From positions 3,846,001-3,910,000 of the forward strand of contig CM075990.1 of the NCBI GenBank assembly GCA_038087875.1: a stretch of 64,000 nt of DNA, written 5' to 3'. Numbering within the stretch: position 1 is the first letter of the stretch; every line of letters starts with the position of its first letter. This document shows, in pieces, positions 13,261 through 63,020 of this stretch. The position numbers were made by a program, and so were the translations under genes. The notes beneath the pieces are model-generated. The model searched no databases and had not been told where the DNA came from. It saw only the letters and a list, made by a program, of their open reading frames with translations. Source of the DNA: Malacoraja senta (Eukaryota).

Positions 13261-14273
13261 TACATAGATACATAGATACATAGAAAATAGGTGCAGGAGT
13301 AGGCCATTCGGCCATTCAATATGATCATGGCTGATCATCCAACTCAGTATCCCGTACCTGCCTTCTCTCCATACCACCTGATCCCCTTAGCCACAAGGGC
13401 CACATCTAACTCCCTCTTAAATATAACCAATGAACTGGCCTCAACTACCCTCTGTGGCAGAGAGTTCCAGAGATTCACCACTATCTGTGTGAAAAGGTTT
13501 TTCCTCATCTCGGTCCTAAAGGATTTCCCCCTTATCCTTAAGCTGTGACCCCTTGTCCTGGACTTCCCCAACATCGGGAACAATCTTCCTGCATCTAGCC
13601 TGTCCAACCCCATAAGAATTTTGTACGTTTCTATAAGATCCCCTCTCAATCTCCTAAATTCTAGCGAGTATAAGCCAAGTCTATCCAGTCTTTCTTCATA
13701 TGAAAGTCCTGACATCCCAGGAATCAGTCTGGTGAACCTTCTCTGCACTCCCTCTATGGCTATAATGTCCTTCCTCAGATTTGGAGACCAAAACTGTACG
13801 CAATACTCCAGGTGTGGTCTCACCAAGACCCTGTACAACTGCAGTAGAACCTCCCTGCTCCTATACTCAAATCCTCTTGCTATGAAGGCCAGCATACCAT
13901 TCACTTTCTTCACTGCCTGCTGCACCTACATGCCTACTTTCAATGACTGGTGTACCATGACACCCAGGTCTCGCTGCATCTCCCCATTTCCTAATCGGCC
14001 ACCATTTAGATAATAGTCTGCCTTCCCGTTTTTGCCACCAAAGTGGATAACCTCACATTTATCCACATTATACTGCATCTGCCAAACATTTGCCCACTCA
14101 CCCAGCCTATCCAAGTCACCTTGCAGTCTCCTAGCATCCTCCTCACAGCTAACACTGTCCCCCAGCTTAGTGTCATCCGCAAACTTGGAGATGTTGCTTT
14201 CAATTCCCTCATCCATTCATTAATATAAATTGTAAATAGCTGGGGTCCCAGCACTGAGCCTTGCGGTACCCCA
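13261..14273 (-). mobile_element. CR1 LINE, 5'-truncated 3' portion, same young family as 41127-43770
   Basis: ORFs 13926-14216 and 13344-13925 near-identical to the C-terminus of the 42115-43677 ORF; (tctatgta)n tail. Confidence 0.93.
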
Positions 14274-14490
14274 CAAGCACCAACAAAGTTACAAAAAGTA
14301 CTCACCTATTACCAACCTTTGTCCTGCCTGTCCTTTCTCCCAGCTTTCCCTCCCACCTCCTCCCCCCACAATCAGTCTGAAGAAGGGTCCTGACCTGAAA
14401 CGTCACCTGTCCATGTTCTCCAGAGATGCTGCCTGACCCGCTGAGTTACTCCAGCACTCTGTGTGTCCTCTCAGCCAATAGAAGCTTGGG

Positions 14491-16046
14491 AGGGCTGCCA
14501 ACATTGGGTAAGAGTTGGTAGTGAGAAATTGCGAGAGACCAAGCCCGAGGGAGCGTAGCGCCCCCCTCCAATTGGTACGGAGCTTTTGCATTTTTCAGCT
14601 TGAAATTGTGCAATCTGGTGCATACTGTAGCGAGTCTTTTAACTTACACTTGAATGCCATATTTATGCTTTAAATTGGATTAGCTATGAATAAGGCTAAT
14701 TTACATTCCTAATAACATTCCACAGTAGAGCCAGGCTCTGATCAACAGGTGCAGCACATGAATGATCTTAGTGTATTCATGTATGGAAATCAGATTATAA
14801 TCAAGCACTTGGCCCATGTTGACCATCCTGGGTCTCACTGCACACCTGGTACTACTCCTGACCCCGACTCCAGTTGTATACCTTCTCTCATTCCTGACCC
14901 TGAGTCCAGCCTTACATCTAGCCCCCTACATCATAGCTGCTTACCTGCTTAGGTTCCCAGTGCTGCATACAGGTTTGGATGGATATGGACCAAAAGCAGG
15001 TAGTGTAGCTAGGACATGTTGGTGGGTATGGGTAGGTTGGGCCGAAGGGCCTGTTTTCACACTGTATCACTCTATGACTACATTATACCTCCACCATGCA
15101 TGAATGCTTCTAAATCAAGTGGTCGAGTTTTATTGCCATATACTCAAGCAGAGAAACATAGCAAATTGGTGCAGGAATAGGCCATTCGGCCCTTCGAGCC
15201 AGCACTGCCATTCAATATGATCATGGCTGTTCATCTAAAATCAGTACCTCTTTCCTGTTTTTTCCCCATATCCCTTGATGTCGTTAGCCCCAAGAGCTAA
15301 ATGTAACTCTTTTGAAAACATCCAGTGAATTGGCCTCCACTGCGCACTGCCTTCTGTGGCAGAGATTTCCACAGATTCACAACTCTCTGGGTGAAGAAAT
15401 GTTATCCTCATCTCAGTCCTAACTGGCCTACCCCTTATTCTTAAGCTGTGTGACCCCTGGTTCTGAACTCCCCCGACATCAGGAACATTTTTCCTGCAGT
15501 TACAGTAAGTGAAAATCTAGCAGGCAAGCAGGATGCTTTCTCCATTTGACGGCCACTATCTTCCACCGTTTCTACCCAGTGCTTGGAACTTACTTCCAGC
15601 AGGCACTGGTTGTCCTCCAGGATGCACCGAGCCGCAGCCTGGTCCATGCCGGTCAACAGGGCAAATTCAGCACAGAGAGTCTCACGACAGCGGCGCAACG
15701 CTTCCAACGCCTCTGACGGCCCGGGATTCTTGCACTGAGGCTGCTCCATGGCCGGAGCTGCAGCGAGCGACTTGCCAGCCCGGCAAACACTTGCCAGCCC
15801 AGCAAACACTCACCAGCCCGGCAAACACTCGCCAGCCCCAGCTCGCCGTCCGCATCTGACCCGGCCGCTGCTTCTGCTTCCATCCCTCCCTCCGCCGCAG
15901 CTCTCCAACACCCGTGGCCCATGCAGTTAATATTAGTTTTGAAATTCTCGTTGAGCGTGACAGAGTGTGAGAAATTCTGTGATCAGTGTGAGAATTGGGC
16001 GAAATGCGTGATTCTCATGCTCAATGCGTGAGAGTTGGCAGCTCTG
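14491..16046. mobile_element. hAT-type non-autonomous DNA transposon carrying a captured gene fragment
   Basis: Termini agggctgccaac (14491) and gttggcagctctg (to 16046); flanking 8-mers agcttggg (14483-14490) and agtttggg (16047-16054), 7/8 identical. Confidence 0.7.
15594..15883 (-). pseudogene. TDP2: TDP2 exon-1-like fragment (N-terminal UBA-like domain) with splice donor; frameshifted by a 19-bp repeat expansion
   Basis: RRCRETLCAEFALLTGMDQAAARCILEDNQCLLE resembles TDP2 KKRRLLCVEFASVASCDAAVAQCFLAENDWEME (human, from memory); followed directly by GAA|GTAAGT; no downstream TDP2 exons recognised. Confidence 0.65.
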
Positions 16047-21560: not shown

Positions 21561-23310
21561 TTTCAACCAATTGGACAGATCAGCTGCTATTTATAATCCT
21601 TCCGCCACCGTCTTACCAAGAACCACCACCATGCAAGTACTCATCCCCTCTTGCCCTCCGATCTACCACATTCCCTTTTATCTCCCCCAACATGATTCCT
21701 TTCCTGCAACATAACAGCCTGCATAAGGTCAAGAGTGACAGGAGTAGAGTTTGGCCATTCAGCCCATCACGTCTACTCTGCCATTCAATCACGGCTGATC
21801 CATCTTCCCCTCTTAACCCCATTCTACTGCCTTCTCCCCATAACCTCTGACACCTGTACTAATCAAGATAAATGCATGTCCTCTATTTTTACACCCAGTT
21901 CTGATGAAGGGTTATCTACCCGAAACATTACTCAGATTCTGTCCCCGCAGATGTTACCTGACCTCCTGAGTATTTGTGGTATAAAATGAAAGATATAATG
22001 TGCTGGAGCAACTCAACAGGTCAGGCAGCATCTCTGGAGAACAGACATTGGTGTGGACTCTGAGGTATTGACCCTTCTTCAATAGACAATAGACAATAGG
22101 TGCAGGAGTAGGGCATATGGCCCTTCGAGCCAGCACCGCCATTCAATGTGATCATGGCTGATCATCCCCAATCAGTACCCCGTTCCTGCTTTCTCCCCAT
22201 ATCCCCTGACTCCGCTACTTTTAAGAGCCCTATCTAGCTCTCTCTTGACAGCATCCAGAGAACCTGCCTCCACCGCCCTCTGAGGCAGAGAATTCCCCAC
22301 TCCCCACTCTCTGTGATAAAAAGTGTTTCCTCGTCTCCGTTCTAAATGGCTTACCCCTTATTCTTAAATATTCTCCTTATTTTCATTCCTTATACTCCTT
22401 ATTCTTAAAGACTTCTTCCTCAGTCTGAAGGGGAGTCCCAACCCAAAATGTCACCTATCCTCGTTCTCCAGAGTTGCTGCCCGACATGCTGAGTTACTCC
22501 AGCACTTTGTGTCTTTATTTTTTGCAGCCAGCATCTGCAGTTCCCTTGTGTCTGGATATTTATTGTTTTTTTTAATTTAGATTCCCAGCATCTAATTTAG
22601 ATTCCCAGCACCTCCCAGTATATTTGTTGTTGCCCAGAGCCCATGCCTTGAGTGATGTGAGAAGCAGGCACTGTTTGGGCTTCAGATGGGTACAAAGTGC
22701 TGGAGTAACTCAGCGGGTCAGGCAGCATCTCTGGAGGAAAAGGAATAGGTGACGTTTCGGATCGGTAAGCTTCTGGAGAAGTCTGGGCTACCACTGAACC
22801 TGCCTACAGACAATTGGCTTCTTTCTCAGGAACGGGTCAGTTGGCAGAGGTGTGCAAATGGAATGGAAGCATATGAATGCACCACTTTATTTCACAAATA
22901 AAAACTTTTTTTTTGAGAATCACGCTGAACATCTCACCCGAAAAATCAACAAAAAGCACACCAGCTACTCCCCACAACACTATTCGCCACGAAAAGCCTC
23001 ATAACGCCACCAACAGAATCAAGGACTAGTCTCACCCCGGTCACTCCTTCTCCCCTCTCCCGTCAGCCAAGAGGTACAGAAGTGTGAAAATGCACACCTC
23101 CAGATTCAAGGACAGTTTCTTCCCAGCTCTTATCAGGCAAACTGAACCATCCTATCATCAACTAGACAGCAGTCCTGAGCTAACATCTGCCTTATTGGAG
23201 ACCCTTGGACTATCTTAAATCAGACTTTACTGGCATGGTCTTGCACCAAATGTTATTCCCTTTATTCTGTATCATCTGTACACTGTGGATGACTCGATTG
23301 TAATCATGTA

Positions 23311-23651: not shown

Positions 23652-24988
23652 TACAGTATTTCACTGAGAGAGACACAAAATGTTGGAGTAACTCAGCGGG
23701 ATAGGCAGCATCTCCGGAGAGAAGGAATGGGTGACCCTTGAGACTTAAAAACATCACCCAATTCCTTCTCTCCAGAGAAGCTGCTGCCTGTCCCGCTGAG
23801 TTACTCCAGCATTTAGTGTCTATCTTCGGTGCAAACCAGCATCTGCAGTTCCTTCCTACACCGTCTTTCCACTGACTGGATAGCATGCGACAAAAAGCCT
23901 TCGGCGCTGCTGCACCTCGGAACAAAACATCCGAGGCAATATTAAACTAAAAAGTGAAGTTGATTTAACAATGAATGAGGCTCAGTGCGAATGGCCATTG
24001 GAGGTTGGAATGGATTTCCATAAACCGGGGTGCGAACACGGCTCAACCAGAAATTGGTTAAAGTTGCAAAAGCTGGTTTACACCGAAGAATTAACTCCAG
24101 CATTTTCCGTCTATTGGTTCGAGTTGCTCTGGTGGCCACTGGCCCCGAATCAAACCAGCTCCCTCCCGACTCAGACGCTGGGAATAGAAACATAGAAAAT
24201 AGGTGCCCTTCGGCCCGTCAAAGCAGCACCGCCATTCAATATGTTTAAGAAGGAACTGTAGATGCTGGAAAATCGAAGGTAGACAAAAATGCTGGAGAAA
24301 CTCAGCGGGTGCAGCAGCATCTATGGGGCGAAGGAAATAGGCAACGTTTCGGGCCGATACCCTTCTTCAGACCCATCATTCAATATGATCAGTACCCCGA
24401 TCCTGCCCCCCCCCCCTTATATCCCTTGATTCCGTTAGCCCTAAGAGCTAAATCCACCTCCAGTTTAAATTCCATTTGGAATATTTTGGCGGATCAGGAA
24501 ACCAAGAAACTCTCTCTTGAAAACTTGAATCTGCCTCCTCGTAATAAACTTTCCACCAGACTCATGTTGGCAACACAGCGAGCTCTCCTGAAGTAACAGG
24601 GAGGCTACTCATCCAGTAGCTAGTCAGAACTTCCAGCCGCGGCTGGTGGAATAATATGGCCTGATCATTGAACACAGATACTGGTCAGAATCCAGGAATT
24701 TCTCGCAACCGAAACAGGATTTGACAACCAATTAACACAAGCCGGCTCCAACTGTAAAAGAGGGAAATCAGGATTTCCATAAAATGAAATCGTGCTTTGA
24801 AACCCAAACTTTGGATCAACGACTTTAAACTACTCTGTGCAGCCGGGACGAAATGCAACTTAAATTAATCACACACACACACAGGGAGTTGATCTAATTC
24901 AGGGACATTTCTGAACAGATTAAGCCCATACAGAAAGGGACTCAGGGGGGAAAAACGGTCCCAAGTCATCAAGCAAGCGTTAAACTCT

Positions 24989-29140: not shown

Positions 29141-29930
29141 ACCGCCCACGCTGTCTACCATCGGGCAGAAGTTACAGGAAAACTGTGACCACCAGGTTCA
29201 AGAACAGCTTCTAACCAACAACCATCAAGATCTTGAACACTGCACAACACTAATCTCACAAAGATAGACACAAAAAGCTGGAGTAACGCAGCGGGTAAAC
29301 CAGCATCTGCAGTTCTTTCCTACACATTTCGTCTGCTCCAGCGCGAAATCTCCTTCAAAGGTGTCTACTTTGAAGAAGTTCTCCTCCTCTCTCCAACAAG
29401 GTTCAGCAACATCCTCTCTAGCTGCTCCCCCCTCTGTGGTTCCTCCTGCTCTCTGCTGCTGGGTTACTCCAGCTTTTTGTGTCTATCTTTGGTTTAAAGC
29501 AGCATCTGCAGTTCCTTCCTACACTAATCTCACAAACTTCCACAGCGTGGCACTTTGGTTGCACCATGGAAACCGTTTTTTTGTATTATGATGGTTACCT
29601 AGTAATATGGTTATTAATTCATTGTAGTTGTGAATCCTATGTGTTATCTGTGTGCTATTGTGTTGACAGACCTGTTAACTTGCAGCAAATCAGGATATTG
29701 AGTAAAGAAGTTAGGATCGGTTCAAGACATTTCTTCAGACAAACCCTCTGTCGGAAGAATAGTCTCGACCCGAAACATCACTTATTTCTTTTCTCCAAAG
29801 ACCTTTCTTCAGGCTTAAAAACATCACATATTCCTTCCCTCCAGAGATGCTGCCTGTCCCACTGAGTTACTCCAGCTTTTTGTGTCTATCTTCGGATTAA
29901 ACCAGCATCAGCAGTTCCTTCCTATACATA

Positions 29931-30357: not shown

Positions 30358-31727
30358 ATCCTACATCTAGAAGTTGGGATATTATGTTACAGCTGTACAA
30401 GGTGCTGATGAGCCACAGTTGGAGTATTGTGTTCAGTTTTGGTCATCCTATTATAGGAAAGGGTGCAGAGAAGATTTATGATGATGTTGCCAGGACTTGA
30501 GGGCCTGAGCTACAGAGAGAGGATGGGCAGTCTAGGACTATATTCCATGGAGCATAGGAGGTGATATTATATAGGTGTGTAAGATCACGAGAGGATTAGA
30601 TTGGGTAGTTGCACAGTTTTTTACCCAGAGTGGGGGAATCAAGAACCAGGGAACAATTTTCAGGTGAGAGGGGAAAGATTTAATGGGAAGCTGAGGGGAA
30701 ACTTTTTCATACAGGGGGGATGGGTATTCAGAATGAGTTACAGGAAGAAGGTAGACAAAAACGCTGGAGAAACTCAGCTGGTACGGCAGCATCTATGGAG
30801 CGAATCTTCGCTCCATAGATGCTGCCGCACCCGCTGAGTTTCTCCAGCATTTTTGTCTACCTTCGATTTTCCGGCATCTGCAGTTCCTTCTTGAACGAGT
30901 TACAGGAGGAGGTGGTTGAGGCAGAAACTATAACAACATTTAAAAGACATTTGGGCAAGGGCAGGTATAGGATAGGTTTAAAGGGATATGTGCCAAACGC
31001 GGGCAGGTGGGACTAGTATAGATGGAGGATCTTGGCTGACAAGGGCAAGTTGGGCCGAAAGTCCTGTTCCCGTGCTGTGTGACTCTATGACTCATCCAAG
31101 TGTTGAATTTCATTGCTGATTGTTGTTGATACATATTAAACACTGACGCTCTCTCTCTTAATCTTCCCATTCAGAGCCTTGGAGTCATTTTCCATTGAGA
31201 TTGTTTTAGAATTATCACTTATACCAAGACACAGTGAATAGTTTTGCTCTTTGAGTGCTATTGAGGCTGATCATTCCATACAAGAAAACGAATGACTAAT
31301 AACCAGATAAAAACAATCTAATGTTACAGATTTGCTGGAGTAACTCGGCAGCACAGGCAACATCTCGGGATGGAAGGAATGGGTGATGTTTCGAGTCGAG
31401 ACCCTTCTTCAGACTGAGCAGCATCTGCTGTCCCTTCCTACACTGTAATTCATACAGCCTGGAGACTGAGTTGTTTTACACATGAGTACAATTATACCAT
31501 CCACGAACACATCAGGCAGTGCAACACAGAAAACAAATACTGCAGAATATAGACGTAGTGATACAGAGAAAGTACACGTAAAAAGAGAAAAGTGAAAGGG
31601 GTAGATTGGAAGATTGGGAAACATCCTTAGTTTATGAGTGGTCTGTTCAGCAGTCTGATAACAACGTGGAAGAAGCCGTTCCTCGATCTGGAGATCGGCG
31701 ATTTCAAGCTTTGTCTTTGCACAAGTG

Positions 31728-32030: not shown

Positions 32031-33377
32031 CGAGAGTCAGAGAGTTATGCAGCATGGAAACAGGCCCTTCGACCCAACTCGTCCACACCGACCAAGATGC
32101 CCCATCTACGCTAGTCCCATTTGCCTGCATTTGGCCCATATCCCTCTAAACCTTTCCTATCCATGCACCTGTCCAAGTGCCTTTGAAATGCTGTTATTGT
32201 ATGGGTCTCAACTCCCTTCTCTGGCTGCCCATTCTACATACCCACCACCTTCTGAGTGAAACAGGTTGCCCCTGAGGTTCCTGTTAAATCTTGTCCCTCT
32301 CACTTTGTGGAAGAAATTAATTTAGATGGAAATTAAAGGAAAATGAAAAGCGGAGACTTTGCAGGTTTACTTCAAGAGACTGTATTGCATGATATCATGG
32401 AGAGATGGCGGCAGTTAACTGCTCACCAGTTCCCTGACTTCACAGCAGAATTAGCCGAACATACTTTTTTGTTCATGTCAATCTTATTCAACAACAGATG
32501 GTTAATACAAGTCAAACACAATACAAGGGCATCTTGACATTATGCTATCTCATCTTTTAGGCGGCCCGCGCCACCATCCCCTCTCCGAGCCTATCATAAG
32601 CCCCCCATTTACTGCGACATATCTACGCTACTAGCGGTAGGGGGCGCTGGGTGGTCTACTGTAACACACTGCTGAGAGATACAAACTTACATATCTCCGT
32701 CTACTATTTCATGTTTACATCTACCATCCACCCTTCAACACATTCCGAGACAGTAAGTAATACGTCAAATCTTACTTTGCCGATTCCCACGAACCTCTTC
32801 TACACCTGGTCAATGAGAGATGCCAATTGTCACATCCAAACACCCTTTCGTTACCTTGTTCAATCCCAATCAAAATTAAGTAAGGAAGGATATTCATATT
32901 TTCTTCCGCACACTTTAAACATGTCCTCTTGTTTTGGATTCCCCTACCCGGGTAACAGACTCTGTGCATTCACCCTATCTATTCCCCACTGAGGTTGGTA
33001 TCAAATTGATTTTGTGTGATGGATCCAAATTGTGTGGAAATGTAAATAGTACTTTTTCTTTAAAAAGCACAAAAAACTATTTCCTTCATGATTTTATAAA
33101 CCACTATAAGTTCACCCCTCAGTCTCCTGCGTTCCAAGGAATAAAGTCCGAGCCTGCCCAAACTCTCCCTATAGTTCAGGCCCTTGGGCCTTGGCAACAT
33201 CTTTGTAAATCTTCTCTGCACTCGTTGCAACTAAATGACATCCTTCCTACAGCAGGATGATCAAAATCAGAACAGAAGAGAGAATGATGGGGCTGTGTGT
33301 CGTCCTTGATTCTGTTGGCATTCATCAGTTAATCTCAGATACTCTGAAACCCTTGAACCAAGAGGCAGACAACAGCT

Positions 33378-33920
33378 AGACACAGAGTGCTGGAGTAACT
33401 CAGCGGGTCAGGCAGCATCTCTGGAGAGAATGATTGGGTGACGTTTCAGGTCGAGACCCTTCTTCAGTGGTTAGGGATAAGGGAAACGAGAGATATAGAC
33501 GGTGATGTCGAGAGATAAAGAACAATGAATAAAAGATCTGCAAAAAAGTAATGATGATAAAGGAAACAGGCCAATGTTAGCTGTTTGTAGACAAAAGTGC
33601 TGGAGAAACTCAGCGGGTGCAGCAGCATCTATGGAGCGAAGGAAATAGGCAACGTTTCAGGCCGAAACCAAGCTGTTTGTTGGCTGAAAGCAACAAGCTA
33701 GTGCGACTTGGGTGGGGGAGGGATAGAGAGAGAGAGGGAATGCCGGGGCTACCTGAAGTGAGAGAAATCAATATCCATACCGCAGTGTGGGAATGGGAAG
33801 GGGGGATTCAACTGTTTCGCAAACAAATCGGATAGGCCAAGTTGGACTGAGCGGAGGTGTTCAGCGAAACGATGGCCCAGTCTGCGCTTGGTGGCGCCGA
33901 TATCGGAGCCCATGTGGAGA
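33378..33920 (-). mobile_element. Penelope-like element 3' fragment with GIY-YIG endonuclease remnant and terminal repeat
   Basis: Minus-strand translation IGATKRRLGHRFAEHLRSV (~33845-33901; YIG motif region) and GMDIDFSHFR* contiguous with the gtgctggagtaactcagcgggtcaggcagcatc repeat. Confidence 0.8.
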
Positions 33921-34547: not shown

Positions 34548-34975
34548 TCATTAATTTTAATGGTGAGAAATTCATCCCCCTACACCTTGGCTTAGTCCCT
34601 CAAGTGTCCGAATTATGGGACTATCCATTCCCGAAGATAAAGCTTATTTAACATGTGGTGAAAAGTCAAATTCGTTCTGTCGTTTGACTTCCATTGTCTA
34701 TTCCACTCATAATTACAAATCACAACCATTAGATTGAAGACACGGAGTGCTGGAGTAGCTCAGCGAATCAGGAAGCATCTCAGGAGAACATGGATAGATG
34801 ACATTCCCATGGTAGTTGTCCATCCATCTTCTCCAGAGATGCTGCCTGACCCCGCCGAGCTACTCCAGCACTCTGCATCTTCTTTAATAAACCCTGCCGT
34901 TCCTTTTTTCTACAACTATTAGATTGATTGGAAGGCACAACATGGAAACAGGCCCTTCAGCCCTTCAGCCCATTG

Positions 34976-39663: not shown

Positions 39664-40727
39664 TATCATAGAACAGTACAGCACAAGAACAGGCTCTTCA
39701 GCACACAACGTCTGTGCTAAACATGAAGCCAAGACCATCTCTTATCTACCTGTGCATAATCCATGACCCTCAGTTCCCTTCAGTTGCTTGGGCAGCTTGA
39801 CTTCTCTAACTTCAAGTAGCCCTTACTTTCCCTCTCACTCCATCCCCTCCCCTTCCCAGTTCTCCTGCCAGTCTTACTGTCTCCGACTACATTTTATCTG
39901 TACCGCCCACTCCCCTGACATCAGTCTGAAGTAGGGTCTTGACCCGAAAACGTCACCCATTCGTTCTCTCCAGAGATGCTGCCTGTCCCGCTGAGTTACT
40001 CCAGCATTTTTGTGTCTCCCTCAGTTCCCTGCAGGTCCATGTGCCTATGCAAAAGTCTATTCAATGCCACTATCGTATCTGCCTTCACCACCACCCCTGG
40101 CTGCATGTTCCAGGAACTCACTACACTGGCCCCGCAAATCTCCTTTAACCTCGGCTCCCTTCACCTTAAAGCTGTGCCCTTGGGATAAGCTATTTCCTCA
40201 AGTGCAGCTGAAGCGACAATCCTCCTCCAGAAGGGAAACACACATTGCTGGAGTAACTCAGCGGGTCAACAGGATGTTGCCTGACCTACTGAGTTCCTCC
40301 AGCACTTTGCGTTTCACTCAAGATTCCAGCAACTGCAGTTCCTTGTGCCTCCATCTTCCTCCAGGAAGCTTATTTGCAATCAACAGAATTGATTGATCTT
40401 ACGGAATCAAGGGATATGGGGAGAAAGCAGGAACGGGGTACTGATTCTGGATGATCAGCCATGATCATATTGAATGGGGTGCTGGCTCGAAGGGCCGAAT
40501 GGCCTACACCTGCACCTATTTTCTATGTTTCTATGTTTCAAACAGGTATAGGGCGGTTCCCCTCTCAAGAGCAGCAGTGCAGTGACAATTCCTCCAAGGG
40601 TCAGAGATCCGGCTTCTCTCTTAACCTCGGGTGCTGTCTGTGTGGAGTTTGCATGTTCTCCCAATGACCAAATCAGTTGACCTCTGGTACTCCGGTTTCC
40701 TCCCGCATCCCAAAGTGTGGGTTAGTA

Positions 40728-41107
40728 CAGGTCCACCCCCAATTTTACAGCACCCTTGGTTCCAGAGCCTTGCTGGATTATCCGTTTTGCCGGACCAACA
40801 GAGGTCACGGCCTCCGAGAGGAATCTAACGGTACTGGAACGATCAGCCGAGGGGTACGAGATACCGGCCCGCAAAGTCGCCATCGGAAGTCGGCTATGGA
40901 AACGGATCTGCCAGCTCCGGCCGGACCAGAGTTCCAGAGCCCCAGCCACAGGGGGCTAATTCGACTCGCCGATCGGCCGCGGAAGTCCCGATGAGGTCGC
41001 GATCGGCCGCCTCACCCGGCCTACGGGGGATTTCAAGTCTCTTGTAATTTTGTCCGGAGTAAAGGAAGGGCCACACCACCAGTTCCCATCATTCGGAGGT
41101 GGAGCTG
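40728..41107. mobile_element. Tc1/mariner-like MITE, same family as 23311-23651, inserted in a V-SINE
   Basis: ta|caggtccacccccaattttacagcac...ggaggtggagctg; internal sequence is the reverse complement of 23311-23651. Confidence 0.75.
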
Positions 41108-41126
41108 CACCTTAATCGGTTACTGC

Positions 41127-43770
41127 AAACGCTGGTGGGTGTTGTGTACAGGCCACCTAGCAGTAGTAGTGAAGTTGGGGATGGCATCAAACAGGAAATT
41201 AGAAATGCGTGCAACAAAGGCAAAACAGTTATAATGGGTGACTTTAATCTACATATAGATTGGGTGAATCAAATTGGCAGGGGTGCTGAGGAAGAGGATT
41301 TCTTGGAATGTATGCGGGATAGTTATCTAAACCAACATGTAGAGGAACCAACGAGAGAGCAGGCTATTCTAGACTGGGTATTGAGTAATGAGGAAGGGTT
41401 AGTTAGCAGTCTTGTTGTGCGTGCCCCCTTGGGCAAGAGTGACCATAATATGGTTGAGTTCTTCATTAGGATGGAGAGTGACATTGTTAATTCAGAAACA
41501 ACGGTTCTGAACTTAAAGAGAGGTAACTTTGAGGGTATGAGACGTGAATTGGCCAAGATTGACTGGCAATTAGTTCTAAAAGGGTTGACGGTGGATATGC
41601 AATGGAAGGCATTTAAAGACTGCATGGATGAACTACAAAAATTGTTCATCCCAGTTTGGCAAAAGAATAAATCAGGGAAGGTAGTGCATCCGTGGATAAC
41701 AAGGGAAATCAGGGATAGTATCAAAGCAAAAGATGATGCGTACAAATTAGCCAGAAAAAGCAGCATACCAGACGACTGGGGGAAATTCAGAGACCAGCAG
41801 AGGAGGACAAAGGGCTTAATTAGGAAAGGGAAAATAGATTATGAAAGGAAACTGGCAGGGAACATAAAAACTGACTGCAAAAGTTTTTATAGATATGTGA
41901 AGAGAAAGAGATTAGTTAAAACAAATGTAGGTCCCTTGCAGTCAGAAACAGGGGAACAAGGATATGGCGGACCAATTGAATAACTACTTTGGTTCCGTCT
42001 TCACTAAGGAAGACATAAATAATCTGCCGGAAATAGCAGGGGACCGGGGGTCAAATGAGATGGAGGAACTGAGTGAAATCCAGGTTAGCCAGGAAGTGGT
42101 GTTAGGTAAATGAGATGGAGGAACTGAGTGAAATCCAGGTTAGCCAGGAAGTGGTGTTAGGTAAATTGAATGGATTAAAGGCCGATAAATCACCAGGGCC
42201 AGATAGGCTGCATCCCAGAGTACTTAAGGAAGTATCCCCAGAAATAGTGGATGCATTAGTGATAATTTTTCAAAACTCTTTAGATTCTGGAGTAGTTCCA
42301 GAGGATTGGAGGGTAGCAAACATAACCCCACTTTTTAAGAAGGGAGGGAGAGAGAAAACGGGGAATTACAGACCAGTTAGTCTAACATCGGTAGTGGGGG
42401 AACTGCTAGAGTCAGTTATTAAAGATGGGATAGCAGCACATTTGGAAAGTGGTGAAATCATTGGACAAAGTCAGCATGGATTTACGAAAGGTAAATCATG
42501 TCTGACGAATCTTATAGAATTTTTCGAGGATGTAACTAGTAGAGTGGATAGGGGAGAACCAGTGGATGTGTTGTATCTGGACTTTCAGAAGGCTTTCGAC
42601 AAGGTACCACATAAGAGATTAGTATACAAACGTAAAGCACATGGTATTGGGGGTTCAGTATTGATGTGGATAGAGAACTGGCTGGCAAACAGGAAGCAAA
42701 GAGTAGGAGTAAACGGGTCCTTTTCACAATGGCAGGCAGTGACTAGTGGGGTACCGCAAGGCTCAGTGCTGGGACCCCAGCTATTTACAATTTATATTAA
42801 TGAACTGGATGAGGGAATTGAAGGCAACATCTCCAAGTTTGCGGATGACACTAAGCTGGGGGGCAGTGTTAGCTGTGAGGAGGATGCTAGGAGACTGCAA
42901 GGTGACTTGGATAGGCTGGGTGAGTGGGCAAATGTTTGGCAGATGCAGTATAATGTGGATAAATGTGAGGTTATCCACTTTGGTGGCAAAAACAGGAAAG
43001 CAGACTATTATCTAAATGGTGGCCGATTAGGAAAAGGGGAGATGCAGCGAGACCTGGGTGTCATGGTACACCAGTCATTGAAAGTAGGCATGCAGGTGCA
43101 GCAGGCAGTGAAGAAAGCGAATGGTATGTTAGCTTTCATAGCAAAAGGATTTGAGTATAGGAGCAGGGAGGTTCTACTGCAGTTGTACAGGGTCTTGGTG
43201 AGACCACACCTGGAGTATTGCGTACAGTTTTGGTCTCCAAATCTGAGGAAGGACATTATAGCCATAGAGGGAGTGCAGAGAAGGTTCACCAGACTGATTC
43301 CTGGGATGTCAGGACTTTCATATGAAGAAAGACTGGATAGACTTGGCTTATACTCGCTAGAATTTAGGAGATTGAGAGGGGATCTTATAGAAACGTACAA
43401 AATTCTTATGGGGTTGGACAGGCTAGATGCAGGAAGATTGTTCCCGATGTTGGGGAAGTCCAGGACAAGGGGTCACAGCTTAAGGATAAGGGGGAAATCC
43501 TTTAAGACCGAGATGAGGAAAAACTTTTTCACACAGAGAGTGGTGAATCTCTGGAACTCTCTGCCACAGAGGGTAGTTGAGGCCAGTTCATTGGCTATAT
43601 TTAAGAGGGAGTTAGATGTGGTCCTTGTGGCTAAAGGGATCAGGGGGTATGGAGAGAAGGCAGGTACGGGATACTGAGTTGGATGATCAGCCATGATCAT
43701 ATTGAATGGCAGTACAGGCTCGAAGGGCCGAATGGCCTACTCCTGCACCTATTTTCTATGTATCTATGTA
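41127..43770 (+). mobile_element. CR1 LINE, 5'-truncated in the endonuclease domain, young
   Basis: ORF 41099-41983 (VYRPP, MGDFN, SDHN) and ORF 42115-43677 (520 aa RT, FADD); frame broken by a 14-bp deletion near 41950 and a 55-bp duplication at 42056-42165; ttctatgtatctatgta tail. Confidence 0.95.
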
Positions 43771-45657
43771 TGTCCCTAGTAACCAGGTGAGTCGAGTGGT
43801 AGAATCTGGAAAAGGAAGGAGAATAAAAAATGTAATTAAAGTTGGATTCATTTAAATGGGTGAGGTTTGGTCGGCATGGATCTGTGTGGCAAAATGAATT
43901 GCTTCTTTGTTGTATTTCTCTGATTCTGACTCTCTTCCCATGACTCTAGCTGTCTTCAGCAGTCACTCAGGCTTACCTGCAGTTAAGTTGTTTCCTGGCA
44001 TTCATAAGCATTAAAAAATACAGGGAATTCAAAATAGAACGTGTAAGAAAGAACTGCAGATGCTGGTTTAAATCGTAGGTAGACACAACATGCTGGAGTA
44101 ACTCAACGGGTGAGGCAGCATCTCTGGAGAGAAGGAATGGGTGACGTTTCGGGTCGAGAACCTTCTTCGACCCGAAACATCCGAAACCAGATTGGTGGTG
44201 CAGTGGACACTGAAGAAGGTATCTAAGATTACAACTGGATCTCGATCAACTGGGAATGTATTGCCAAGATTAGCTGAATGAATTTGAGTTTAGTTTATTG
44301 TCACATGTACCGAGGTACAGTGAAAAGCTTTTGTTGCGTGCTAACCAGTTGGCGGAAAGACAATACATGATTACAATTGAACCATCCACAATATACAGAT
44401 ACATGAAAAAAGAAAATAACGTGAAGAATGTTTCAGATAAGTGCAACGAGATGCATTTTGTGACGTGGGGGAACCGCCGTGGGGGGAGGGAAGAATGAAC
44501 GAGGACCCGGCGTGGGTGGACCGCCATGGAGGGGGGAGAACAAAGGAGTACTCGGCGTGCGGGAAGGGGAGGGGATGGAGAGAGGGGGCGGAACTAAGGA
44601 GGACCTGGCATGGGATAGTTTGTAACATTGACGCCGCCATTTTTTGTGGCGATCCTTTCAAAAAGACAAAGACTTTCACTATGACTCGCGACAATAATGT
44701 ATTCATTCATTTTGGGAAGTTGAACCAGGGCAGGACATGCACAGTAAATGGCAGAACCCTGGTGAACCTTGTAGAATAGGTAGACCTCAGGGAACAGGTA
44801 CTCTGAAATGATGACAGAGGTAGAGAGGGGGGTGAAGAGGGCATATGGCACACTTGCACTCATCTGTCAAGGCATTGAGTACAATGTTGGGATGTCCTGG
44901 TACAACGAGACAAGGGATTTGTGAGACCGCACCGGGAATATTCTGTGCAGTTTTGTTTGCGTAGCTGTAGAAGTTTCAAGCCGCAGGTGCGGCGCGGACT
45001 TACCATCGTGGAGCCTGTGATCTTTTGCCAAGGATCGCCAGTGTTGGAGCTCTGACCGCGGGGCGTGTGGGCTTTAACACCGTGAAGCAGCGGTCTCTGG
45101 TAAGTAGCGGCCGACACGGGAGCTCCATGCCGCGGAATGTTCCGATCCGTCCCGACGCCGGAGTTTCGATCATCCCGACGAGAGGGCTTGAACAGCGGAC
45201 CGTCGGCAACGGCAAGTGCGGAGGATTCAAGGCCCCGACCAGGGGTGAACAAAGGAAGATGACTGAACTTTATTGCCTTCCATCACAGTGAAGAATGTTG
45301 ATTCCACTGTGGTGGATGTTTATGTTAAACTTTATTTTATGCACTGTGTGTATTTTTGATTTTTTTACTTAGTATTGCTGCATGGTAACTCAAATTTCAC
45401 TGAATCTTGAATCTTGAATCTTGAAAGCATGTGATTAAGCTGGAAAGGGTTCAGAAAAGATTTAGGATTTAGGCTTGGGAGGAGCGCCTGGGTAGGCTGG
45501 GCATCTTTCCCTGGCGTGTAGGAGTCTGAGCGGTGACCTTAGAGGCATAGAATCATGAGGAGCGTAGATAAGAGGAATGGTCACAGTCTTTTCCCCCAGG
45601 ATAAAGAAGTCTAAAACCAGAGGGCATCGTTTTAAGAAGAAAATGCAAAGATTTAAA

Positions 45658-46025: not shown

Positions 46026-46287
46026 ACAAAAGAGGACCCGATGGACAGGTTTTTCATGAAGGATGATGGAATGAGCTACCAGAAGAGCTGGTAAAGGAGG
46101 GTACAATTACACCAGTACATGGAGTCAAGAGTCAAGTTATTGTCATATATCCCAGATAGAACAATAAAATCCATGCGTGCAGATTGGAAAGTTTTATTGG
46201 GATGTGGGCCAATGCATTTCATTGTACATACCACAATAATGTATCATTAAGTTGAATCAGTTAGGCAACATGGTCAGCTGGGATGAG

Positions 46288-47578
46288 GTGAGATGAGGTG
46301 AGATGTGGTGGGTGCACAGGTGAGATGTGGTGGGGTGGGGTATGGGTACAGGTGAGATGTGCTGGGCTGGGGTGGGTGTACAGGTGAGATGTGGTAGGGT
46401 GGGGTATGTGTACAGGTGAGATGTGGTGGGGTGGGGTATGTGTACAGGTGAGATGTGGTGGGGTGGGGTATGTGTACAGGTGAGATGTGGTTGGGTGGGG
46501 TATGTGTACAGGTGAGATGTGGTGGGTGGGGTATGTGTACAGGTGAGATGTGCTGTGCTGGGCTGGGGTGGATGTACAGGTGAGATGTGCTGGGCTGGGG
46601 TGGGTGTACAGGTGAGATGTGGTGGGGTGGGGTATGTGTACAGGTGAGATGTGCTGGGCTGGGGTGGGTGTACAAGTGAGATGTGGTGGGGTGGGGTACA
46701 TGTACAGGTGAGATGTGCTGGGGTGGGGTGGGTGTACAGGTGAGATGTGGTGGGCTGGGGTGGGTGTACAGGTGAGATGTGCTGTGCTGTGCTGGGCTGG
46801 GGTGGGTGTACAGGTGAGATGTGGTGGGGTGGGGTATGTGTACAGGTGAGATGTGCTGGGCTGGGCTGGGGTGGGTGTACAGGTGAGATGTGGTGGGGTG
46901 GGGTACGTGTACAGGTGAGATGTGCTATGCTGGGCTGGGGTGGGTGTACAGGTGAGATGTGGTGGGGTGGGGTACGTGTACAGGTGAGATGTGCTATGCT
47001 GGGCTGGGGTGGGTGTACAGGTGAGATGTGGTGGGGTGGGGTATGTGTACAGGTGAGATGTGCTATGCTGGGCTGGGGTGGGGTGTACAGGTGAGATGTG
47101 GTGGGGTGGGGTATGTGTACAGGTGAGGTGCTATGCTGGGCTGGGGTGGGTGTACAGGTGAGATGTGGTGGGGTGGGGTATGTGTACAGGTGAGATGTGC
47201 TGTGCTGGGCTGGGGTGGGTGTACAGGTGAGATGTGGTGGGGTGGGGTATGTGTACAGGTGAGGTGCTATGCTGGGCTGGGGTGGGTGTACAGGTGAGAT
47301 GTGGTGGGGTGGGGTATGTGTACAGGTGAGGTGCTATGCTGGGCTGGGGTGGGTGTACAGGTGAGATGTGGTGGGGTGGGGTATGTGTACAGGTGAGATG
47401 TGCTGTGCTGGGCTGGGGTGGGTGTACAGGTGAGATGTGGTGGGGTGGGGTATGTGTACAGGTGAGATGTGCTGTGCTGTGCTGGGCTGGGGTGGGTGTA
47501 CAGGTGAGATGTGGTGGGGTGGGGTGGGTGTACAGGTGAGATGTGCTGTGCTGGGCTGGGGTGGGTGTACAGGTGAGT
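46288..47578. repeat. G-rich minisatellite, ~32-42 bp variant units, ~1.3 kb
   Basis: Core gtacaggtgagatgtg alternating with gtggggtggggtatgt or ctgggctggggtgggt. Confidence 0.95.
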
Positions 47579-47589
47579 TGGTGATACAC

Positions 47590-47735
47590 AACCACGTGGC
47601 CGCGCTCATTATTCAGGCGGGACGATGACGTGCGAGGGCGATGACGTCAACACGCTCGCCAATGAAAACCTGTCCCGTGACCCGCGCCGCCTGCTGGGAG
47701 TTGTAGGCGGTATAGAAGGGGGGCGCATGCGCAGC
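47590..47735 (+). promoter_or_regulatory. GHITM: GHITM CpG-rich promoter
   Basis: CACGTG 47593-47598, TGACGTG 47626-47632, full CRE TGACGTCA 47642-47649, CCAAT 47659-47663, TATAGA 47711-47716, NRF1-type GCGCATGCGCA 47723-47733, directly upstream of a strong donor. Confidence 0.75.
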
Positions 47736-50116: not shown

Positions 50117-53100
50117 CACAGAGGTCAGGATCCAACCCAGGTCTTGGGTGCTGTGAGGCAGCAGCTTTACTGCTGCATCACTGTGCCGCTCAAAGTGATT
50201 GCTGAAGTTAGTGCGATTTAATAAAAGTAAATGTTTTTATCGCATCGGCCCTTGTTACAAACTCTGTTCTCGCATCAATGGCGGTAACTTCTCCCTGACC
50301 ATTGTATTAGACTGTAACCTGCACACTGCAATTCCTGATTTGAGCCATCCACAGCAGTCTTGAGCTACTATCTACCTCATCGGGGACCCTCGGACTATCT
50401 TGGATCCGACTTTACCTTGCACTAAAAGTTATTTCCTTATCATGTATCAGTACACTGCGAATGGCTCGATTGGAATTATGTACTGTCTTTCTGCTGGCTG
50501 GTTAGCACGCAACAAAAGCTTTTAGCTGTACCTCGGTGCACGGGACAATAAACAAACTGAACTATACATAAGAGGAATAACATTTAGTGCAAGATAAAGT
50601 ACAGTAAAGTCCGATTAACGATAGTCCGAGGGTCTCCATTGAGGTAGATAGTAGCTCAGGACCACAGTTGTTGATAGGATTGGTTAGTAATGAACCCAAG
50701 CTCTCGATATGTATCAGAAATGGGCTGTTCTGCCAATCAGTCATCCAGCTGCAACATAGGCTCCGCTTTTCCCTCTCCACTTACATGATCTGAAGTGCTT
50801 GTCTCACTCTGCATGTTAACAGCTTTTGCAGCTGTCCTTATCTCACTGTTTTTACGTTTGGTTTACATTATCTCACTCTAACTGCCTCGTTAATCTATCA
50901 ACTAGTTTACTACTTCAACAGCTTTTCATCATGGCAATCCTGATCGTTTCTACCCTTTCTCCAATCTATCATTTTCCTATCCTTGCAATTTAAAACACTC
51001 ATATTCTCCCTTTTCCAATTTTGACCATATCTTCCATCGGGACCGCAACTCTGCTTCTGCTGAATGTTTCCAGCGTTTTTATTTTGCTTTCATACAAGTC
51101 TAGTAAATGTCTGAACTATTAAATTAAAATACTGTACATTGTTTTCCAGATATGATTACATCATTACCCTGTAATGGAATTGTATCCTTCCTGTTTTTAT
51201 ATTCAATTTCCGACACAGATTATAGTATTGTTTGCTTTCCTAATTACTTAATGTGCCGTGCAAATCCTGTACTTGGACACACGGATCTTTTTACATTCTC
51301 TCACTGTTTTGATAATATGCTGCCATATCTTTGCTCACTTTAGCAAATTTAGCAAGCATATTTTCAGTCTGTGCATTCATCTATTTGCCTAAATTGGAAA
51401 TAAAAATTGAGGCCTTGGCACTGAACCATTGCCAAAGATGCACTTTTGCATATTGTTCCCCATTAGTCAGCCATTCCTACCATGCCATTGCGTCCTCTGC
51501 CATGAGCTGTTATTTTCTGCAACGATGTTCTAATATGTTCTTATCAGACTCTGGCAATCTGTATAGCACATCCACGTTGTCTACCTAAGATAGGCACAAA
51601 AAGCTGGAGTAACTCAGCGGGTCAGGCAGCATCTCAGCAGAAAAGGAATAGTTGACATTTCGGGTCGAGGCCCTTCTTCAGACTGAGAGTCAGGGGAAAG
51701 GCAAACGAGAGATATATGTGGTGATGTAGAGATATAGAACAAATGAATGAAAGATGCAAAAACGTCACTTATTCCTTTTCTCCAGAGATGCTGCCTGACC
51801 TGCTGAGTTACTCCAGCATTTTGTGTCTATCTTCAGTGTAAACCAGCATCTGCAGTTCCTTCTTAGTACATCCGCCTGTTCATCTCTATCCTGATTTTTG
51901 CTATTTCTCCAAAGAACTCCAATAAATTAATCAAATGTTTTTTTGGAAAAGGAAATCATCTTGACTTTGTTCACTTACCTTGCTTTTCTTCTCCGAGCGC
52001 TGTTGTAACATCTTTAATAGTCGTGCCTCTTATCTCCATGTTTTGGATATTAAACTCATTAGCCTGGAGCTTTCTGTTTTCTTTCTCCTTTTTTGAATAC
52101 GCTTGCCTTATTTACTGTTTTGTTAAAAAAAAATTGAATGGCTAAATCTAGCGAATTATCTACAATCAAAGCGAACCCTCGATATGGATAAAAACCCACA
52201 ATGAAGTCCAACAGGAACTAGAAACTTAACAGCTCACAGTTTCAGCATTTTGCTTCTTCCACCTTTCTGGCGATTGTAATTCTCCCAAATTCTTCCCCTC
52301 TTCAACTTCCTGATTTAGTGCTAATTTGGGGATATATTACTTATCCTCCATGATAAAGACTGATTAACAGTGATAAAGACTGATTAACAAGCCTGTTAAA
52401 TTTATCAGCTATCTCCTTGTTTACCATTATTACCAGACCTCCTTTCCAAAACACCAGCTCATTCTCTCGTCTTGAATTATCATGAGGATACTCTTATTAT
52501 TTTTGTACATCAGGCTATCTTAACCTTGTACTCTAATTTGTTTTTCTTTTTTAATCTTTTAGTCATTCTTTGAGATTTTATATTTTGTCCAGCCTTCTGA
52601 CCTGACATCTGTCTTTGCTTAGTTTTATGCTTTTACATTGAGTTGATAAAAATACATCTATTGATGCTCCTGAACACACCATCAGTGTTGTAACCTGGGG
52701 TCATTGGGTGTTTCGCATCTTTCAACATCAGACACCCTCACCCAGGCAACCCAGCCGTGGTTGATCACACCATGACTTGTGTTCAGGTGGCATTCGCTCC
52801 CCCCCATGGACCTTCTCTCCAGATCCAGAGCCATCTCGAAGTTTAATACAATTTAAACTTTTCTAGATAACCACAGTGGGTCCTGCCCTTGGAATCTTTC
52901 ATTCTTATTGTGCAATGTCTTTTTATGTATCCTGAAAGATCCCCTCAAATGTCTTGCACTGGACTGACCAATCCCACAACCTAGTTTACCTGTCTGAAGA
53001 AGGCCCCCAACCCAAAATGACACCTGTTCATTCCTTCCCAAGATGCTGCCTGACCCGTTGAGTCACTGCATCATGTTGTGTTTTACTCAAGATTCCCGCT

Positions 53101-61757: not shown

Positions 61758-62310
61758 GTGAGGAATGTCTTGAGATTTATTTTCAAGTTAAATAACAAAT
61801 GGCATTAATTTTGGTCAGATGAAATTCATAAAACAATACGCTCGTGATACCCTGCCTACCAACCTAAGTGTTCACTTCTTCCACCACTGGTGCACGATAG
61901 CTAAACTGTGTACCAACTATAAAATGCACTGCAGTTATTTACCTATGCTACACTGACACCTCTACAAACTCTGCAAGCTCTACTACAAATAAGAGTAGCA
62001 GGCACATGGAAGTACCACCACTTGCAGATCTTCCAAGTCAAACTCGAGCTGATTATTGAAAATCAAAACTGCCAATGCGGGAAATCTAAAATGATAACAG
62101 AAAATGCTGGAAATTCTCAGCAGGTCAGGCCACATCTGTGGGAAGAGACATAGTCAACGTTTATGGTTGAAGATCCTTTCAACAGAACTTGGAAAGAGAC
62201 AAAAGTGCAGGTACCTAGTTTCCTTTAAAATGGCATCACAGGTAGATAAGGTAGTCGAGAAGGCTTTCAGTACATTGGTCTTCAGTAAAGGGATTGAATA
62301 TAGAAGACAG

Positions 62311-62565
62311 GCACAACATGCCAGAGTAACTCAGCGGGACAGGCAGCATCTCTGGATGGAAGGAATGGGTGACGTTCCGGGTTGAGATCCTTCTTCAGAC
62401 TGAAGAAGGGTCTCGACCCGAAATATCACTCGGTCTGAAGAAGCGTGTCGACCCGAAATGTCACCCACTCCTTCCCCAGAGATGGTGCTTATCCTGCTGA
62501 GTTACTCCAGCGTTTTGTGTCTTATCTTCAGTCTCAACCAGCATTTGTAGTTCCTTCCTACACAT
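62311..62565. mobile_element. Penelope-derived fold-back repeat with hammerhead-like motifs (related fold-backs at ~17520-17620, 23670-23860, 30745-30895, 48200-48390, 51590-51860, 56520-56640)
   Basis: Inverted arms gagtaactcagcgggacaggcagcatctctgg / ccagagatggtgcttatcctgctgagttactcc around ctgaagaagggtctcgacccgaaa. Confidence 0.8.
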
Positions 62566-63020
62566 ATTGAATATAGAAGTTTGGATGTGTAGGAAAGAAC
62601 TGCAGATGCCGGTTTAAATCGAAGGTGGACACAAAATGCTTGGGATGTGATGTTACAGCTGTACAAGATGTTGACGAGGTTGTATTTGGAGTACTGAGTT
62701 CAGTTTTGATCACTCTGTTATAGGAAGAATGGTGTTACGCCGGAAAGAATGCAGAGATGATTTATGAGGATGTACCAGACTGAGCTCTAAGGAAATATTC
62801 AGCAGGCTAGGACTTTATTCTTTGGAGCACAGGAGAATGTGGGCTCTTAGAGGTTCATACAATCATGAGAGGAATAGATAGGATAGGCACAGTCTTTTAC
62901 TCGGAGCAGGGTAATCAAGAACAAGGGAATCTAGGTTTGTGAGAGGGGAAAGATTTGATAGGAACCAGAGGTGGGTGTATGGAAAATGCTGCCGGAGGTG
63001 GTAATTGAGGTAGGTACCAT

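What the first reader, a model, noticed from the sequence alone, without database searches (positions are those of the whole stretch)
33378..33920. The abundant fold-back repeat is Penelope-derived and carries a minimal hammerhead motif
Seen: here the repeat is contiguous with a GIY-YIG remnant (IGATKRRLGHRFAEHLRSV). Its core on the minus strand (33467-33437) reads CTGAAGA A GGGT CTCG ACCT GAAA CGTC ACC, i.e. CUGANGA, stem II, GAAA, a palindromic ACGU in place of stem III and a GUC site. The same motif recurs at 14377-14404 (+), 24342-24372 (-), 31383-31412 (-), 39926-39954 (+), 51652-51681 (-) and in decayed form elsewhere. Known: Penelope-like elements encode minimal type I hammerheads that are thought to work as dimers. 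Caveats: one extra A after the CUGANGA box and a short stem I.
Basis: partly seen in the sequence, partly recalled or inferred. Interest (0 to 1): 0.7.

Follow-up and report, generated by a model that had tools for sequence, protein, structure and literature searches.

The report
Decayed Penelope retroelement ends with hammerhead
This repeat is the broken-off end of a Penelope-like jumping gene, carrying the small self-cutting RNA motif already known from that family; it is real and abundant but ordinary, and the copy flagged here is too damaged to fold properly.

Summary
The motif is real: a relaxed minimal-hammerhead descriptor finds 8 sites against 0.1 in shuffles, inside a ~135-nt unit present as 45-48 pieces. 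It matches the published consensus of Penelope-like element (PLE) minimal hammerheads; the 'extra A' is a conserved feature of that class, not a caveat. PLE origin rests on the ORF-end/pLTR/hammerhead/tail order in two subfamilies, 8-14-bp target duplications, head-to-head arms with a ~38-nt tail on one arm only (all published PLE traits), and a weakly supported GIY-YIG remnant. Corrections: the flagged copy is one arm, not a fold-back; a younger copy with a 10-bp duplication splits it; it has no stem I. Only 1 of 27 copies is strictly intact. Cleavage untested. The scan noted the same thing three times on other DNA. New member of a known kind; low interest.

The parts
33749..33916 (-). Decayed C-terminal end of a PLE ORF: second half of the GIY-YIG motif and RFxEH motif (33901-33848), internally deleted and frameshifted, ending at a TAG (33751-33749)
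   Evidence: Translation; top window hit of a profile from 108 RT-linked endonuclease domains, 6.3 bits vs max 4.2 in 10 shuffles, iE 0.18; ESM Atlas GIY-YIG cluster at 0.88, lead only; no Pfam hit; repeat-level depth over 33828-33899
33681..33748 (-). Pyrimidine-rich pLTR, upstream part
   Evidence: 78% identical over 63 nt to 39797-39858; high depth
33671..33680 (.). Target-site duplication of the nested copy (second copy at 33579-33588)
   Evidence: Exact 10-bp repeat
33589..33670 (-). Nested, 5'-truncated copy of subfamily B (stem II to short end; no CUGA box)
   Evidence: 77 of 81 identical to the 24370 copy, 68 of 83 to the flanking copy; contigs joining 33587 to 33695 in all four runs (2, 6, 3, 1 contigs; letters between not known)
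33468..33578 (-). Pyrimidine-rich pLTR, downstream part; the family's usual UCAGU flank is damaged here
   Evidence: 80% identical to the pLTR of the 51681 copy; loose-end consensus in four runs
33440..33467 (-). Minimal hammerhead core C3 to C17 (putative cut 33440/33439); stem II 4 bp with terminal G.U, ACGU palindrome, no stem I in this copy
33378..33439 (-). pLTR segment after the hammerhead, ending at the short 3' end (no tail)
   Evidence: loose ends at 33377-33386
24244..24376 (-). Only strictly intact hammerhead copy (subfamily B, core 24370-24343), with long tail, 6-7-bp stem I, 11-bp duplication at 24233-24243/24377-24387
   Evidence: (hammerhead fold is the MFE, -12.7 kcal/mol)
39780..40017 (+). 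Second ORF-end/pLTR/hammerhead insertion (another pLTR subfamily) bounded by a 13-bp duplication (39767-39779/40018-40030); core has A9 changed
   Evidence: ends in DFSNFK-stop, like the DFSHFR-stop of the flagged copy
14377..14464 (+). Single-arm copy, near-intact core, with pyrimidine-rich pLTR upstream
51582..51872 (.). Head-to-head pair: left arm with pLTR and short end, right arm with long tail
62299..62571 (.). Head-to-head pair joined at the palindromic UCAG-U-CUGA flank, with a partial tandem core; 14-bp duplication (62293/62566)
30747..30904 (.). Head-to-head subfamily B pair without hammerhead, long tail on one arm, 11-bp duplication
34737..34921 (.). Head-to-head pair, long tail on one arm, 10-bp duplication

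Best explanation
The repeat is the 3' end (pLTR, minimal hammerhead, optional tail) of several subfamilies of endonuclease-bearing Penelope-like retrotransposons, left as heavily 5'-truncated dead copies. Shown here: order ORF end, pyrimidine-rich pLTR, hammerhead core, short end, ~38-nt tail; two 3' ends; single arms and head-to-head pairs with the tail on one arm; target duplications; CpG-type decay. Inferred from published work: the element's GIY-YIG nuclease cuts the target, its RT starts inside the RNA at two nearby sites (giving the two ends), stops early and, when both target strands are extended or the cDNA folds back, leaves the head-to-head pair. Inferred, untested: in the full-length master RNA two cores pair through the ACGU palindrome to form helix III and cut after GUC/GUU, slowly and probably only with help from the element's protein. 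The genomic copies, the flagged one included, are almost all inactive.
For: Consensus fits the published CUGANGAH / G..C / GAAAN-palindrome-NUH pattern and the four traits listed by Cervera and De la Pena. ORF end joined to the core in two subfamilies, 189 nt (insert removed) and 106 nt apart, the second inside a 13-bp duplication. 3' ends bimodal: 17 of 41 at model positions 75-93, 22 of 41 at 117-132, 2 between. In 11 of 11 head-to-head pairs exactly one arm reaches the long end (one duplicate pairing of 12 dropped), as described for PLEs and explained by two RT start sites in the anole element. Shared flank words of 8-14 bp in 5 of 11 pairs (42 of 300 random windows reach 8). Summed contig depth falls from the 3' end towards the nuclease remnant in all four runs and is 4-6 orders above the unique flank in X19 (not a copy number). 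At CpG columns 24 of 29 changes are C>T or G>A.
Against: The nuclease remnant is weakly supported by tools: no Pfam hit, no word-index homologues, 2 of 3 phmmer hits spurious, profile iE 0.18, Atlas 0.88. No PLE RT remnant found in the window. Core is not significantly more conserved than the tail once the pyrimidine tract and 5'-end bias are removed (130/140 vs 455/504, Fisher p=0.41; permutation p=0.16), although the uncorrected test gave p=0.006. No covariation above shuffles (188 of 500 as high). The majority form has only a 2-bp stem I and does not fold as a hammerhead by MFE. No Rfam hammerhead hit. No outer duplication found for the flagged copy.
Confidence: 0.88

Rival explanations
1. 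Most copies come from a non-autonomous mini-element (SINE- or retrozyme-like unit starting at the hammerhead), mobilised in trans by PLE proteins, rather than from truncation of full-length RNA.
For: 21 of 45 pieces start at model position 1-2, at the CUGA box; similarity upstream was seen in 5 of the 6 copies tested and a BLAST of the flagged pLTR found only two other pLTR matches; depth drops 3- to 43-fold just upstream of the core. Retrozymes are proposed to be PLE derivatives.
Against: Other pieces start anywhere from position 4 to 63; several pLTR subfamilies and the local damage of the flagged copy can explain the depth drop; no head-to-tail arrays, only short partial tandems; the palindromic UCAG-U-CUGA flank is a plausible stop and fold-back site. 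15 of the 21 were compared upstream by eye only.
Confidence: 0.15
2. The motif is a vestige or a protein-binding/structural signal: even the master element's RNA does not self-cleave.
For: 2-bp stem I in the majority form and a flank that can pair with the catalytic box; no significant selection signal; in the anole element cleavage was dispensable for insertion in vitro and no RNA-seq ends were found at the site.
Against: Subfamilies A and B differ at 14 of 88 positions but at none of the 11 core bases, and keep stem II and a cleavable triplet (one B copy only); A-U replaces G-C at one stem II pair in two copies; related motifs cleave weakly as multimers or with protein.
Confidence: 0.2
3. 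Splice-gated hammerhead: the pyrimidine tract and CAG just before the core are a 3' splice site; splicing swaps the 5' strand of stem I, extending it from 2 to about 6 bp and switching the ribozyme on.
For: 68-85% pyrimidine in the 40 nt before six cores, CAG in five of them; the 24370 copy has a different 5' flank inside its duplication that gives a 6-7-bp stem I, and 48439 has a similar flank, while contigs laid on the nested B copy mostly continue with the usual flank. An intron ending at helix I is published for Drosophila virilis Penelope.
Against: One clear copy; no matching donor seen by eye in the pLTR; branch-like words lie only 6-8 nt from the AG; the whole pLTR is pyrimidine-rich (75% also 200 nt upstream); the CAG is equally explained as half of a palindrome; the 24370 flank may be a subfamily trait or chance.
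Confidence: 0.08
4. A MITE or fold-back DNA transposon whose arms resemble a hammerhead by chance.
For: Many insertions are inverted repeats with target duplications.
Against: Arms are unequal and of variable length, many copies are single arms, duplications vary from 8 to 14 bp, the unit is attached to an ORF end in two subfamilies, and the motif matches a published consensus.
Confidence: 0.02

Closest known systems
Minimal hammerheads (min-HHR) of metazoan Penelope-like elements, Cervera and De la Pena 2014 (PMC4209133)
   Same: CUGANGA plus one unpaired base, G10.1-C11.1, GAAA, palindromic 15.2-16.2, UH triplet, short helix I (2-6 bp in their Fig. S3), place in the pLTR, most copies solitary, some opposite-strand pairs; CUGAAGAA and GAAA-CGUC occur in their fugu, cichlid, Xenopus and snake examples.
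   Different: Stem II is 4 bp with a tetraloop, at the short end of their range; their Fig. S3 list has no cartilaginous fish, the group I infer for this window from recalled repeat content; majority stem I is only 2 bp.
Endonuclease-positive PLE insertions (Penelope/Poseidon, Neptune, Nematis): Arkhipova 2013 (PMC3846280), Craig 2021 (PMC8557442)
   Same: 5' truncation, adjacent inverted truncated copy head-to-head, 30-40-bp tail on one end, 8-10-bp duplications, palindrome at the inverted junction, insertion into earlier copies.
   Different: Copies here are extremely short and dense (about 4.2 kb of 64 kb); clade could not be assigned because the RT and linker are absent.
PAc (Poseidon of Anolis carolinensis), Frangieh 2024 (PMC11167929)
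   Same: Hammerhead followed, about 90-135 nt on, by two alternative ends that define the tail.
   Different: No ORF start in stem II was established here; no biochemical or RNA data here.
Non-LTR retrozymes (Li, Clavereau, Pollet 2026, 10.64898/2026.07.22.740005)
   Same: Type I hammerhead of PLE pLTR origin; reported in one chondrichthyan.
   Different: Retrozymes are tandem arrays with a complete hammerhead per unit; these copies are dispersed single arms or inverted pairs.

Membership tests
PLE minimal hammerhead (min-HHR) | CUGANGA box plus one unpaired base before stem II | tested here: met
   Majority letters in 21- and 27-copy alignments; flagged copy has it
PLE minimal hammerhead (min-HHR) | Stem II closed by G10.1-C11.1 | tested here: met
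   G-C in 14 of 21 copies; the flagged copy has G.U; C is 40-76% of depth at that place in four runs
PLE minimal hammerhead (min-HHR) | GAAA, palindromic 15.2-16.2, U16.1-H17 | tested here: met
   Majority ACGU-C; C-G kept in only 7 of 21 copies, mostly lost by CpG-type changes
PLE minimal hammerhead (min-HHR) | Helix I (2 bp or more) | tested here: inconclusive
   2 bp in the majority form, 6-7 bp in 24370, 0 bp in the flagged copy, which therefore fails on its own
PLE minimal hammerhead (min-HHR) | Covariation and core conservation across subfamilies | tested here: inconclusive
   p=0.41 core vs tail; 188 of 500 shuffles as high; small sample of neutrally decayed copies
PLE minimal hammerhead (min-HHR) | Self-cleavage as dimer or with protein | not testable with these tools
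   Needs biochemistry; runs found are contigs only
Rfam hammerhead families | Covariance-model match | tested here: not met
   No hammerhead among 14 matches at E<=1; not filed under an Rfam family
Endonuclease-positive Penelope-like elements | C-terminal GIY-YIG endonuclease just upstream of the pLTR | tested here: inconclusive
   Best window hit of a PLE-type endonuclease profile falls exactly here but is weak; Atlas lead; no Pfam hit
Endonuclease-positive Penelope-like elements | Telomerase-like RT in the same ORF | not testable with these tools
   No RT remnant of this kind in the window; no genome held
Endonuclease-positive Penelope-like elements | Head-to-head inverted truncated pLTR with a 30-40-bp tail on one end | tested here: met
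   11 of 11 pairs have exactly one long arm; two end classes about 38 nt apart
Endonuclease-positive Penelope-like elements | Target-site duplications of variable length | tested here: met
   10, 11, 13 bp; 8-14 bp in 5 of 11 pairs; none found for four single arms including the flagged one
Neptune versus Poseidon clade | Cys-rich linker between RT and endonuclease; RT phylogeny | not testable with these tools
   These parts are missing from the remnant
Non-LTR retrozymes | Head-to-tail tandem array with a complete hammerhead in each unit | tested here: not met
   Only short partial tandems among neighbouring pieces

The most novel reading that the evidence does not exclude
The element's hammerhead is switched on by splicing: in unspliced RNA the UCAG flank gives a 2-bp stem I and can pair with the catalytic CUGA box, whereas removal of a pLTR intron supplies a new 5' strand and a 6-bp stem I, and the 24370 copy is a retrotransposed spliced form. 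This would tie PLE intron retention to ribozyme control, with unspliced (uncut) RNA as the preferred insertion template.
Probability: 0.08. Interest if true: 0.6.

Novelty: new member of a known kind. Interest (0 to 1): 0.17.

Why it matters
As it stands it adds one more, very abundant vertebrate family to a class described in 2014, and explains a common fold-back repeat that could be mistaken for a MITE or microRNA hairpin (Rfam gave such sub-threshold matches). The density of copies would make this genome a good statistical resource for PLE insertion mechanics (tail asymmetry, 5'-end clustering). It would matter more only if splicing controls the ribozyme, which would address why PLEs keep both introns and weak hammerheads.

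Tried and rejected
Rfam scan: no hammerhead. Own genome: none held. Pfam on the remnant: 0 families. Word-index homologue searches, longer and near lengths: none. phmmer over cluster representatives: 3 hits, two spurious repeat proteins (P0001, P0002), one repeat of a PLE-type YIG motif (P0003). Metagenome scans: 0 hits, then 1 hit (L001) that matches over 20 nt only in 63% GC DNA and was rejected as chance; viral contigs 0. RNA evidence: no RNA holder listed; the four runs laid are contigs, two of them only guessed to be RNA, so cleavage ends and expression could not be examined. The first core-conservation test (p=0.006) was set aside as biased by 5'-end ascertainment and the variable pyrimidine tract. 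A conserved tail hairpin: fold z-scores from 0.03 to -2.25 in six copies, not consistent. Lunse et al. (PMC5785218) not held; only its title was seen. Sequence look-up in earlier scan notes: nothing. MITE reading rejected.

Full report
Observation. The quoted core is at 33467-33437 on the minus strand and the quoted peptide is in frame upstream of it. A loose pattern gave 13 matches against 2.8 expected; a descriptor that also demands stem II pairing and the NUH triplet gave 8 against a mean of 0.1 and a maximum of 1 in 100 shuffles. Iterative profile searches found 45 pieces of an 88-nt unit and 48 pieces (4,184 nt) of a 135-nt unit with tail. Rfam has no hammerhead match; that its models expect a helix III is my recollection, not a result.

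Anatomy of the flagged stretch. Read on the minus strand: a decayed ORF end with stop at 33751-33749, a pyrimidine-rich pLTR, a nested copy of a second subfamily (33589-33670) flanked by an exact 10-bp duplication, the rest of the pLTR, the core (33467-33440) and 62 nt to the short end. It is a single arm; no outer duplication was found. The flagged core has lost its stem I and has G.U at 10.1-11.1; its MFE fold is not a hammerhead. A second insertion, 39780-40017, bounded by a 13-bp duplication, also runs from an ORF end with a similar last peptide through a different pLTR into the core, so the link between ORF end and hammerhead is seen twice.

The nuclease remnant. Support is modest. Pfam found nothing, nor did two word-index searches. 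phmmer gave three hits, of which only P0003 is meaningful. Its relatives are 115 proteins, most with a precomputed RT domain; a profile of the endonuclease region of 108 of them scores best in the whole window at 33901-33848 (6.3 bits, iE 0.18; 10 shuffles reach at most 4.2). The Atlas lists a GIY-YIG cluster at 0.88, a lead only. Calling those 115 proteins PLE proteins rests on their RT plus Cys/YIG motif layout as described by Craig et al., not on a database name. No RT remnant of this type is in the window.

Family behaviour. Of 41 pieces that cover the middle of the unit, 17 end at model positions 75-93, 22 at 117-132 and 2 between. Of 12 head-to-head pairings, one reuses an arm across an intervening copy and was dropped; in the other 11 exactly one arm reaches the long end (8 with a clearly short partner, 2 intermediate, 1 cut early). 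Five of the 11 have shared flank words of 8-14 bp; 42 of 300 random windows reach 8 and 15 reach 10. In four public runs laid as contigs, summed depth is highest over the 3' end, lower over the pLTR and lowest over the remnant, all far above the unique flank (the tool warns this is no copy number, and many rows were cut). These are the traits published for PLE insertions: inverted truncated copy, tail on one end, duplications, palindromes at the junction (passages of PMC3846280 and PMC8557442); the two ends match two internal RT start sites in the anole element (PMC11167929, parts 1-2 of 4 read).

The hammerhead. Of 27 copies reaching the core, 3 pass a relaxed test and 1 (24370) a strict one (labels come from an alignment and may slip in copies with indels; the 7440 copy has A-U, not G.U as the script printed). 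Decay is CpG-driven (24 of 29 changes at CpG columns) and hits G12 and the palindrome. Named pairs beat slid controls (79% against at most 44%), which is expected for a structure read from the consensus, but not the shuffle control (21 copies given). Subfamily B differs at 14 of 88 positions and at no core base (one copy).

How it most likely works. Shown: truncation, two ends, inverted pairs, duplications, decay. Inferred: endonuclease cut, internal RT initiation at two sites, early stop, second arm from the other target strand or from fold-back at the UCAG-U-CUGA palindrome, which is the junction of the 62398/62400 pair. Inferred and untested: dimer cleavage through the ACGU palindrome in master RNA; published activity of such motifs is low and in the anole element protein-dependent and dispensable for insertion in vitro. 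No RNA evidence could be obtained.

Rivals. A mini-element starting at the core (0.15), a non-cleaving vestige (0.2, compatible with PLE origin), a splice-gated stem I (0.08) and a MITE (0.02) are set out above. The splice idea rests on pyrimidine tracts with CAG, one copy with a long stem I and the Drosophila virilis intron that ends at helix I (PMC2377424 abstract and passages).

Novelty. The host is probably a cartilaginous fish; this is my inference from recalled repeat content, not a tool result. The 2014 alignment has no such species, but a 2026 preprint (parts 1-2 of 5 and passages read) reports hammerhead retrozymes in one chondrichthyan; its supplements, and Lunse et al. (not held; title only; review passages PMC6765202), may already list this family, as may Repbase or Dfam, which I could not search. 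Searches for a description of this family: (one hit, PMC6155905, where 'shark' refers to the ribozyme's shape); none showed one in listings. Three earlier notes of this scan on other genomes reach the same reading, after I had formed mine; they are not independent evidence. Verdict: real, correctly identified, new member of a known kind, interest 0.17.

Noticed in passing
window 33390 and tail of long copies, e.g. 44033-44162 (-), 51757-51872 (+): Both alternative 3' ends lie 12-20 nt after a repeated CCAGCAT word that is complementary to an upstream ATGCTG; possibly the RT start signal. Fold z-scores were not consistent. The 29259-29331 pair switches arms at this complementarity.
   Followed up: partly
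window 24244-24376 (-): Only strictly intact hammerhead; its six 5' bases inside the duplication differ from the usual flank and complete a 6-7-bp stem I.
   Followed up: partly
window 8632 (+) and 48439 (-): Two decayed cores share A-U in place of G-C at the third pair of stem II, suggesting a further subfamily; 48439 was missed by the profile.
   Followed up: partly
window 14377, 18032, 22425, 39926, 51681: Pyrimidine tract and CAG directly before the core, like a 3' splice site, and also half of a palindrome with the CUGA box.
   Followed up: partly
window 41063-43677 (+), 13344-13925 (-), 1134-2066: Long ORFs that look like CR1-group LINE endonuclease and RT; label recalled, not scanned.
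   Followed up: no
window 58561-60991 (+): Three overlapping ORFs of an L1/Tx1-like RT in an AT-rich stretch; label recalled, not scanned.
   Followed up: no
window 9907-11083 (-/+): Frameshifted RT of another LINE family.
   Followed up: no
window 46257-47646: Tandem array with strong strand skew, open in three frames.
   Followed up: no
window 15441-15809 (-): ORF whose middle looks like a possible host-gene exon (helical, ends at a GT donor-like site).
   Followed up: no
window 21993-22426: Two oppositely oriented copies enclose a 344-nt stretch whose halves are inverted LINE 3'-end sequence.
   Followed up: no
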